From IMG/VR virus record IMGVR_UViG_3300046047_000272: a stretch of DNA of 42,503 nt, one strand, 5' to 3'. This DNA comes from a virus (Duplodnaviria > Heunggongvirae > Uroviricota > Caudoviricetes). Made by a program: the position numbers and the translations under genes. Shown here piece after piece: positions 10,568 through 10,914 of this stretch (position 1 is the first letter of the stretch; every line of letters starts with the position of its first letter). Below the pieces are notes generated by a model. The model was not told the origin of the DNA, ran no database searches, and saw only the letters and a program-made list of their open reading frames with translations.

Positions 10568-10633
10568 ATATTTGAAGCGTAGTATCGAGTTACTTCTGAT
10601 AAAAAATACTCGATACGACCTGTTCTCAAATAT
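10568..10633 (+). ncRNA. short Y-RNA-like hairpin 1
   Basis: ATATTTGA/TCAAATAT closing stem, inner GTATCGAGT/ACTCGATAC, motifs AGTTACTTC and GACCTGTTCTC. Confidence 0.55.
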
Positions 10634-10666
10634 CCAAACGATCGTTACGCACGATCACTGATATGA

Positions 10667-10733
10667 GCAGATGTGAAGACTCTAGTTACTTCCCATCCAC
10701 GAAAATATACACTAGCGTCGAATGGTTCTCTGC
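10667..10733 (+). ncRNA. short Y-RNA-like hairpin 2
   Basis: GCAGA/TCTGC closing stem, motifs AGTTACTTC and GAATGGTTCTC; flanked by the inverted repeat ATCGTTACGCACGA/TCGTGCGTAACGAT. Confidence 0.55.
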
Positions 10734-10767
10734 ACATAGTCTTTCATGCGTCGTGCGTAACGATTAT

Positions 10768-10854
10768 GGAGTGCGTGATCCTATTGGTAAGGTCAGCTCG
10801 TCCTGAAAACGAGTGCCGTTCGCGCGGTTAGGGGTTCGATTCCCTTGCACTCCG
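10768..10854 (+). tRNA. tRNA-Ser(TGA), C33
   Basis: GGAGTGC/GCACTCC-G, CTCGT-CC-TGA-AA-ACGAG, long arm. Confidence 0.85.
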
Positions 10855-10914
10855 CGATATTACAGGATGAATGAAGTGATGCATCAATCATGACGCTGAC
10901 TGGTTCTCATATCG
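10855..10914 (+). ncRNA. possible degenerate third Y-RNA-like hairpin
   Basis: CGATAT/ATATCG closing stem and 3' motif GACTGGTTCTC; lacks TTACTTC. Confidence 0.3.

What the first reader, a model, noticed from the sequence alone, without database searches (positions are those of the whole stretch)
10568..10914. Repeated AGTTACTTC...TGTTCTC/TGGTTCTC hairpins directly upstream of Ro60
Seen: two ~65-nt hairpins with different stems but the same motifs, plus a degenerate third, interleaved with tRNA-Ala and tRNA-Ser under one promoter (10407). From memory, similar short repeats lie upstream of TROVE genes in other bacteria; I have not verified this. Inference: minimal Y RNAs consisting only of the Ro-binding module.
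Basis: partly seen in the sequence, partly recalled or inferred. Interest (0 to 1): 0.72.

Follow-up and report, generated by a model that had tools for sequence, protein, structure and literature searches.

The report
Short Y-RNA-like hairpins beside phage Ro60
Two small hairpin RNA genes just upstream of a giant phage's Ro60 gene belong to a large family of RNAs that almost always lies just upstream of Ro60 genes in phages and actinobacteria; they are short, tRNA-domain-free relatives of the known bacterial Y RNAs, so this is a solid but unsurprising find.

Summary
Element A (10566-10635) and element B (core 10664-10736, inside a 128-nt hairpin at 10640-10767) lie between tRNA-Ala and tRNA-Ser, downstream of a near-consensus promoter and upstream of a TROVE/vWA Ro60 gene.

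A covariance model built only from other loci scores A and B at 52 bits each (E about 2e-10). Nothing else in the 42.5-kb window exceeds 12 bits.

The family is found in about 150 phage and metagenome loci, five complete phage genomes and 52 actinobacterial loci. Every match is on the Ro60 strand and nearly all lie directly upstream of Ro60. Fifteen of 17 base pairs show compensatory changes.

Long members carry the same "handle" plus the tRNA-like domain of YrlA (Rfam RF02553, sub-threshold). A and B lack that domain. They are therefore short, hairpin-type Y-RNA-like RNAs, like YrlB, Yrn2 and phiLo Yrl1/2. Ro60 binding is inferred, not shown.

The "third copy" is a degenerate fragment in the Ro60 leader. 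Its GACUGG pairs with CCAGUC in a downstream hairpin loop, and this pairing is kept by compensatory changes across the related huge-phage clade.

This is a new member of a known kind. This scan has noted other Ro60-like gene and small-RNA pairs on other phage DNA.

The parts
10407..10435 (+). Sigma-70-type promoter-like site: TTGCCA, 17-nt spacer, TATAAT, with an extended -10 TG
   Evidence: 11 of 12 consensus matches. This is a consensus match only; no transcription data exist.
10492..10565 (+). tRNA-Ala(AGC). Its 3' end abuts element A.
   Evidence: 61.8 bits against RF00005.
10566..10635 (+). Element A, a short Y-RNA-like hairpin. Basal helix AUAUUUGA/UCAAAUAU, 5' internal-loop box AGCGUAG, upper helix UAUCGAGU/ACUCGAUA, loop UACUUC...AAAAAAU, 3' internal-loop box CGACCUGUUC.
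   Evidence: Fold z -4.6. Model R2, built without window sequences, matches 10568-10633 at 52.1 bits, E 2.6e-10.
10640..10767 (+). Element B, a 128-nt hairpin. An 18-bp outer stem (10640-10657 with 10749-10766) carries the family core at 10664-10736: box UGUGAAG, GUUACUUC loop, 3' box CGAAUGGUUC. It lies 4 nt after A and 1 nt before tRNA-Ser.
   Evidence: Fold z -4.0. R2 matches 10664-10736 at 52.7 bits, E 1.9e-10.
10768..10855 (+). tRNA-Ser(UGA), an atypical tRNA
   Evidence: ARAGORN. Rfam gives only a sub-threshold tRNA-Sec match of 34.7 bits.
10856..10918 (+). Element C, a degenerate copy at the 5' end of the Ro60 leader. It keeps GAAGUGAUG and GACUGGUUCUC but lacks the GUUACUUC hairpin. 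How its 5' half aligns to full elements is ambiguous.
   Evidence: It occupies the same position as the complete last element in relatives L003, L005, L008 and L009.
10898..10903 (+). GACUGG, the 5' strand of the long-range leader helix
   Evidence: Relatives have GGCUGG, or GGCCGG in L120.
10924..10940 (+). Small leader hairpin AUGG/CCAU. Its loop holds CCAGUC (10931-10936), which is complementary to 10898-10903.
   Evidence: Relatives present CCAGCC in the loop of hairpins whose stems differ in sequence.
10961..12568 (+). Ro60 gene (TROVE plus vWA). The ORF is open from 10946. AAGAGGA (10950-10956) points to the ATG at 10961.
   Evidence: TROVE 2.9e-8, vWA_Ro60. (Ro-like proteins of actinophages, 34% identity). 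(phiLo Ro60 structures 9L5Y/9KOP, E 2e-25).

Best explanation
A and B are genes for short Y-RNA-like non-coding RNAs, the partner RNAs of the phage's own Ro60.

Inferred mechanism. They are transcribed from the promoter-like site at 10407 in one precursor: tRNA-Ala, A, B, tRNA-Ser, Ro60 mRNA. Host tRNA 3' and 5' processing then releases them. tRNA-Ala ends at 10565 and A starts at 10566. B ends at 10767 and tRNA-Ser starts at 10768. Because only 4 nt separate A and B, they may stay joined as one RNA of about 200 nt with two handles.

Each RNA offers Ro60 a conserved handle: a basal helix closed by G-C and A-U (or G-U) pairs, an asymmetric internal loop (5' box of the UGCGNAG type, 3' box of the UUGWUCUC type) and a second helix. 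The apical loop, which begins with the invariant GUUACUUC and ends A-rich, replaces the tRNA-like domain of YrlA. It may be where a second factor docks, for example a host exoribonuclease such as PNPase, as in the known Ro60-Y RNA-PNPase complexes.

Shown here: family membership, base-pair covariation, strict co-location with Ro60 on the same strand, and the handle shared with YrlA-like long forms. Inferred: expression, processing, Ro60 binding and the role of the loop.
For: - Model R2 was built from 135 matches in other loci. It scores A at 52.1 bits and B at 52.7 bits (E about 2e-10). The next best match in 42.5 kb scores 11.9 bits.
- Across 82 IMG/VR loci with Ro60 homologues, model R1 found 135 matches. 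All are on the Ro60 strand, 133 lie upstream of Ro60 (median 198 nt) and 77 of the 82 loci have at least one.
- Across 80 independent metagenome loci there are 125 matches, all on the Ro60 strand.
- Whole genomes of five isolated actinophages (691 kb in total) give 21 matches, all within 2.6 kb of Ro60 and on its strand.
- Reverse test: a scan of bacterial genomes with the RNA motif alone returned 80 loci. Fifty-two have Ro60 within 8 kb, and all 66 motif hits in those loci are on the Ro60 strand and upstream of it.
- Covariation: 91.3% of cells are paired, 15 of 17 pairs show compensatory changes, and the score is 0.69 against 0.17 for shuffles, with 0 of 500 shuffles reaching it. Slid-partner controls score 0.07-0.09.
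- Long members insert T arm, stem and D arm after GGUUACUUC and match Rfam YrlA at E 3.6e-7.
- Chen et al. 2014 (PMC4201824) showed that YrlA and YrlB co-precipitate with Rsr, and described a 5' GNCGAA-type box and a YUAY that begins the V loop.
- The window's Ro60 is homologous to phiLo Ro60, which binds two short upstream Yrl RNAs in gel-shift assays and cryo-EM (PMC12135203).
- 74 of 262 family members start within 10 nt of a tRNA 3' end.
Against: - There is no expression, processing or binding evidence for this phage.
- Neither A nor B has an exact GNCGAA/CGAA box in the 5' strand (AGCGUAG, UGUGAAG).
- A (66-70 nt) is shorter than characterised Y RNAs (80-130 nt).
- Which part of the handle contacts Ro60 is inferred only.
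- R2 gave only insignificant matches (10.4 and 9.5 bits, E 0.5-0.9) upstream of Ro60 in mycobacteriophage Bxz1, a relative of the mycobacteriophages in which YrlA was reported. So the link to the experimentally studied RNAs rests on shared architecture and a sub-threshold Rfam match.
- E-values from the shortened model calibration are rough.
Confidence: 0.8

Rival explanations
1. The elements act in cis, not as free RNAs. They would be Y-RNA-mimicking operators in the Ro60 transcript through which Ro60 controls its own synthesis or mRNA stability.
For: All family members lie on the Ro60 strand, and 25 of 133 end within 50 nt of the start codon. In the related huge-phage clade, the element nearest Ro60 has a conserved pairing with a hairpin loop in the leader. 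The window's copy C keeps just these parts.
Against: A and B are separated from Ro60 by a tRNA gene whose processing would cut them off the mRNA. In phage Atuin and in L001, copies also lie downstream of Ro60 among tRNAs. Homologous YrlA and YrlB accumulate as free RNAs bound to Rsr (PMC4201824).
Confidence: 0.1
2. They are generic processing or spacer hairpins of the tRNA array, for example RNase III or RNase E sites or stabilisers, with no tie to Ro60.
For: They sit in inter-tRNA spacers of a 44-tRNA array. Many family members directly follow a tRNA.
Against: Only two of the roughly 40 spacers in the array carry the element, and both are next to Ro60. In complete phage genomes with many tRNAs, every match clusters at Ro60. 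Fifty-one of the 150 loci that carry the element have no tRNA in the fetched stretch. Loop and internal-loop sequences are conserved, which a mere cleavage hairpin does not require.
Confidence: 0.03
3. They are decayed tRNA or YrlA remnants, or a small mobile repeat, with no function.
For: Copy C shows that decay does occur. Long forms with tRNA-like inserts exist, so short forms could be deletion products.
Against: A and B keep every helix despite unrelated stem sequences. Short forms are the top-scoring members in Streptomyces loci, up to 80.9 bits, and 91 of 135 matches in IMG/VR are short. Both facts indicate selection.
Confidence: 0.02

Closest known systems
YrlA (Rfam RF02553; Chen et al. 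2014, PMC4201824), bacterial and mycobacteriophage Y RNAs bound by Rsr/Ro60
   Same: Encoded just upstream of Ro60 on the same strand. The 5' and 3' ends pair. There is a 5' box of the GNCGAA type and then a YUAY (here UUAC) after the second helix. Long members of the family defined here carry the T arm, stem and D arm order of YrlA and match RF02553 at E 3.6e-7.
   Different: A and B have no tRNA-like domain and give no RF02553 match even at E up to 10. Their 5' boxes (AGCGUAG, UGUGAAG) are inexact.
Hairpin-type Y RNAs: S. Typhimurium and M. smegmatis YrlB, D. radiodurans Yrn2 (PMC4201824)
   Same: [quoted passage not shown] The loops of A and B begin with the pyrimidine-rich UACUUC(U/C).
   Different: M. 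smegmatis YrlB is reported to keep a possible T arm, and A and B have none.
Yrl1 and Yrl2 of Thermus phage phiLo with phiRo60 (PMC12135203; PDB 9L5Y)
   Same: A phage Ro60 (homologous to the window's, E 2e-25) has two short stem-bulge-stem RNAs encoded next to the gene, and binding was shown by gel shift and cryo-EM.
   Different: The published Yrls were chosen by a CGAA motif upstream of the gene. My model instead finds two weak matches (20 bits) with GGGUACUUC loops downstream of phiRo60. There is no tRNA array around them.
Metazoan Y RNAs (Rfam RF00019)
   Same: Same general plan: terminal stem with an internal loop or bulge bound by Ro60, plus a variable loop.
   Different: No detectable sequence or model match. 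The resemblance of GGCUGGUUCUC to the vertebrate 5' end GGCUGGUCCGA comes from my memory, and the motif is on the opposite strand of the stem. I treat it as coincidence.

Membership tests
Ro60-associated handle RNA family defined here (models R1 and R2) | Significant score against a covariance model built without the window's sequences | tested here: met
   A scores 52.1 bits and B 52.7 bits, E about 2e-10. The next best match in the window scores 11.9 bits. Copy C fails (8.8 bits with R1, E about 6).
Ro60-associated handle RNA family defined here (models R1 and R2) | Located next to a Ro60 gene and on its strand | tested here: met
   A ends 326 nt and B 194 nt before the Ro60 start, on the same strand. 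This fits the family pattern.
Y RNA (general definition) | Physically bound by Ro60 | not testable with these tools
   Needs a gel-shift assay or immunoprecipitation. The only support is homology to bound RNAs (PMC4201824, PMC12135203).
Y RNA (general definition) | The 5' and 3' ends form a long stem that holds the binding site, next to a large internal loop; size 80-130 nt | tested here: inconclusive
   The stem and internal loop are supported by covariation. B is 128 nt with its outer stem. A is only 66-70 nt, and the true RNA ends are unknown.
YrlA (RF02553) | tRNA-like domain (T arm, acceptor-like stem, D arm) | tested here: not met
   The apical loops of A and B are 17 and 24 nt with no arms. 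The RF02553 hits in the window fall on tRNA-tRNA junctions.
YrlA (RF02553) | Rfam score at or above the gathering threshold (69 bits) | tested here: not met
   There is no RF02553 match in 10380-11000 at E up to 10.
YrlA (RF02553) | GNCGAAN0-1G box near the 5' end | tested here: inconclusive
   A has AGCGUAG and B has UGUGAAG at the equivalent position. The family consensus is UGCG(C/A)AG. The exact GUCGAAUG in B (10716-10723) is on the 3' strand and is probably a coincidence.
Hairpin-type Y RNAs (YrlB, Yrn2, phiLo Yrl) | [quoted passage not shown] | tested here: met
   The loops start UACUUCU (A) and UACUUCCCAUCC (B). Sequence homology to the published RNAs was not tested because their sequences are not held.

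The most novel reading that the evidence does not exclude
In this clade of huge phages the element nearest the Ro60 start codon is a Y-RNA mimic built into the Ro60 mRNA leader. The 3' strand of its internal loop, G(G/A)C(U/C)GG, forms a loop-to-loop pairing with CC(A/G)G(C/U)C in a downstream hairpin, just ahead of the ribosome-binding site. Ro60 would compete with this pairing and so set its own translation or mRNA stability, which is autoregulation by molecular mimicry. The window's copy C, stripped of the apical hairpin, would then mark the minimal Ro60 operator.
Probability: 0.25. Interest if true: 0.6.

Novelty: new member of a known kind. Interest (0 to 1): 0.4.

Why it matters
- It gives a huge sludge phage a complete Ro60 and Y-RNA module, and shows that such phages can use handle-only Y RNAs released by the processing of neighbouring tRNAs.
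- It provides a covariance model and consensus for a very common short Ro60-partner RNA. That RNA is absent from Rfam 15 and is not annotated in the phage GenBank records I inspected (Atuin, VanLee, pSt2308, Satis, BRock).
- Comparing short and long forms separates the constant handle (the likely Ro60 site) from the exchangeable module (tRNA mimic or simple loop). That tells an experimenter which bases to mutate.
- The conserved leader pairing offers a testable idea for how Ro60 levels are set.

None of this overturns current understanding.

Tried and rejected
- Rfam at gathering and E-value thresholds gave no Y_RNA or YrlA match at the finding.
- The RF02553 sub-threshold hits at 8969-9105, 5773-5871 and 9946-10001 span the T arm of one tRNA and the D arm of the next. 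I rejected them as junction artefacts, so I found no YrlA-type RNA in this window.
- Megablast of the locus against phage records found no match.
- A single-protein scan of IMG/VR found nothing. The profile scan worked.
- No whole genome is held for this window.
- Sequencing runs: no RNA holder is listed. The only holders are DNA runs from bioreactor sludge, so expression could not be examined.
- The quick first-look search of the Bxz1 and phiLo records with R2 found nothing. A full-model search gave only insignificant matches in Bxz1 and weak ones in phiLo.
- I considered the leader hairpin at 10443-10485 (GAUUACUUCAC) as a fourth copy and rejected it: no model score and fold z of -1.2.
- A G-U-tolerant chance estimate for the leader pairing was too permissive (0.15-0.49 per locus), so I replaced it with strict Watson-Crick estimates.
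- The homology of copy C's 5' half is ambiguous. My manual alignment and MAFFT place it differently.
- Two review papers on bacterial Y RNAs could not be read because they are not held.

Full report
**Setting.** The window looks like part of a very large phage genome. ARAGORN finds 44 tRNA genes on one strand between 147 and 13588. Downstream ORFs match phage topoisomerase II subunits, NAD-dependent ligase, a sigma factor and dUTPase. The only near-identical DNA in public runs comes from bioreactor sludge metagenomes.

The ORF at 10946/10961-12568 has a TROVE domain and a Ro60-type vWA domain. It is 34% identical to the "Ro-like RNA binding proteins" of actinophages. It is homologous to the solved Ro60 of Thermus phage phiLo (9L5Y/9KOP, E 2e-25).

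**The observation.** AGTTACTTC occurs exactly twice in the window, at 10588 and 10684.
- The stretch 10566-10640 folds into a hairpin of -18.9 kcal/mol (z -4.6).
- The stretch 10640-10767 folds into a 128-nt hairpin of -41.1 kcal/mol (z -4.0).
- No shuffle does as well for either.

The two hairpins have unrelated stems but the same layout:
- a basal helix;
- a 5' internal-loop box (AGCGUAG or UGUGAAG);
- a second helix;
- a loop that opens with GUUACUUC and ends A-rich;
- a 3' box ending in GUUCUC.

A starts right after tRNA-Ala (which ends at 10565). B ends one base before tRNA-Ser (which starts at 10768). Upstream, at 10407-10435, is a promoter-like site with 11 of 12 consensus matches. No terminator-like site lies before the end of Ro60.

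The third copy (10856-10914) shares only GAAGUGAUG and CUGGUUCUC and has no significant fold (z +0.6).

**Relatives.** The closest Ro60 proteins are about 52% identical and lie on 130-550 kb metagenomic contigs, again inside tRNA arrays. The same element appears immediately upstream of them, with different stem sequences.

A motif listing across 82 loci showed two forms:
- a short form of about 70 nt;
- a long form of about 135 nt, in which T arm, stem and D arm follow GGUUACUUC.

The long form is the permuted tRNA-like domain described for YrlA (PMC4201824; example folds). The long form of L024 matches Rfam YrlA at 38.5 bits, E 3.6e-7, which is below the gathering score.

**Structure and statistics.** I aligned 34 short elements, including A and B. 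The consensus structure has 17 pairs, of which 12 are compensatory.

| Search | Result |
|---|---|
| Model R1 on 82 IMG/VR loci | 135 matches, all on the Ro60 strand; 133 upstream of Ro60 (median 198 nt); 77 of 82 loci; 91 short and 44 long |
| Covariation on those 135 matches | 91.3% of cells paired; 15 of 17 pairs compensatory; score 0.69 against 0.17 for shuffles (0 of 500 reach it) and 0.07-0.09 when partners are slid |
| Model R2 (built from those matches only) on the window | A 52.1 bits, B 52.7 bits, E about 2e-10; next best 11.9 bits |
| R2 on 80 independent metagenome loci | 125 matches, all on the Ro60 strand |
| R2 on complete genomes of Atuin, VanLee, pSt2308, Satis and BRock | 21 matches, all within 2.6 kb of Ro60 and on its strand |
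| RNA motif alone on bacterial genomes | 80 loci returned; 52 have Ro60 within 8 kb; all 66 motif hits there are upstream and on the Ro60 strand |
| R2 on those 52 cellular loci | Both short forms (up to 80.9 bits) and long forms |

That condition is clearly not met.

**What it is.** A and B carry the handle of the YrlA family without its tRNA mimic.
- They fail the defining YrlA feature, the tRNA-like domain, and the Rfam threshold.
- They also fit the two short Yrl RNAs that phiLo Ro60 binds (PMC12135203).

The handle is constant between short and long forms, while what follows GGUUACUUC varies. The handle is therefore the likely Ro60 site and the loop the exchangeable module. This is inference.

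**Processing.** 74 of 262 family members begin within 10 nt of a tRNA 3' end. In the window, both outer ends of the A-B pair abut tRNAs. So tRNA processing probably releases them, possibly as one two-handle RNA, since only 4 nt separate A from B.

I found no YrlA-type RNA in this window. The weak RF02553 hits fall on tRNA-tRNA junctions.

**The third copy and the leader.** In relatives, the element nearest Ro60 is complete. It always reads GGCUGGUUCUC, while internal copies read AUUGUUCUC or similar. Downstream, CCAGCC is presented in the loop of a small hairpin whose stem differs between lineages:
- GACUCA/UGAGUC;
- GUCCG/CGGAC;
- GGGG/CCCC;
- AUGG/CCAU in the window.

The pairing is kept by changes on both sides:
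- GACUGG/CCAGUC in the window;
- GGCCGG/CCGGCC in L120;
- a U-G pair in L006.

The chance of an exact complement in a shuffled leader is 0.014 for the window and 0.029 for L120. On the alignment, 99.2% of cells pair, three pairs are compensatory, and 0 of 500 shuffles reach this. The helix also dominates the centroid fold of the window's leader.

Copy C keeps these parts but not the GUUACUUC hairpin. I read it as a degenerate Y-like element that now serves as a leader structure of the Ro60 mRNA. Autoregulation by Ro60 is a possibility and is not shown.

**Novelty.** Y RNAs next to phage Ro60 genes are in print (PMC4201824, PMC12135203), and large-phage TROVE proteins with a tRNA-like partner are mentioned in PMC7824862. 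I found no Rfam family for the short form, no annotation of it in the phage records I inspected, and no paper describing it in the searchable library.

This is a new member of a known kind, with a useful family model and one new detail, the leader pairing. Earlier notes of this scan describe other Ro60-like gene and small-RNA pairs in other phages. Those concern other handles and did not serve as evidence here.

Noticed in passing
window 1038-1097: A 60-nt tRNA-like sequence. It has an acceptor stem GGAAUC/GAUUCC, an anticodon arm with loop CUGUUAG (GUU, Asn) and a normal T arm, but no D arm. ARAGORN calls no tRNA-Asn anywhere in the window. Fold z is -3.3.
   Followed up: partly
L006 4145-4531 (IMG/VR contig of 189 kb): A GOLLD RNA (RF02032, 214 bits) lies about 1 kb downstream of the Ro60 gene, in the tRNA array of a related large phage.
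   Followed up: no
L165 2973-3040 and 3164-3245 (Thermus phage phiLo, MH673673.1): Two weak matches to the family model (20 bits, E about 0.002) with GGGUACUUC loops lie just downstream of phiRo60. They overlap the annotated hypothetical ORF phiLo_25. The published Yrl1 and Yrl2 are described as upstream of the gene.
   Followed up: partly
NC_073474.1 65453-65590 (Gordonia phage VanLee): The annotated tRNA-Arg(tct) at 65454-65525 lies inside a long-form match of the family model. It may be the tRNA-like part of a YrlA-type RNA rather than a decoding tRNA.
   Followed up: no
L011 3780-3884, L012 3604-3712 and relatives: The 130-kb phage clade L010-L021 has a second, longer element downstream of Ro60. 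It has the same GAGUUACUUC loop start plus an extra G+C-rich hairpin.
   Followed up: no
OK040794.2 91469-94353 (Arthrobacter phage Atuin): Six family members are interleaved with annotated tRNAs on both sides of Ro60. None is annotated in the record.
   Followed up: partly
window 10768-10855: The tRNA-Ser(UGA) called by ARAGORN does not reach the Rfam tRNA threshold. Its best Rfam match is a sub-threshold tRNA-Sec hit of 34.7 bits.
   Followed up: no
window 6362-6437 and 12712-12741: Sub-threshold tmRNA (RF00023) matches of 32.5 and 19.2 bits inside the tRNA array and downstream of Ro60.
   Followed up: no
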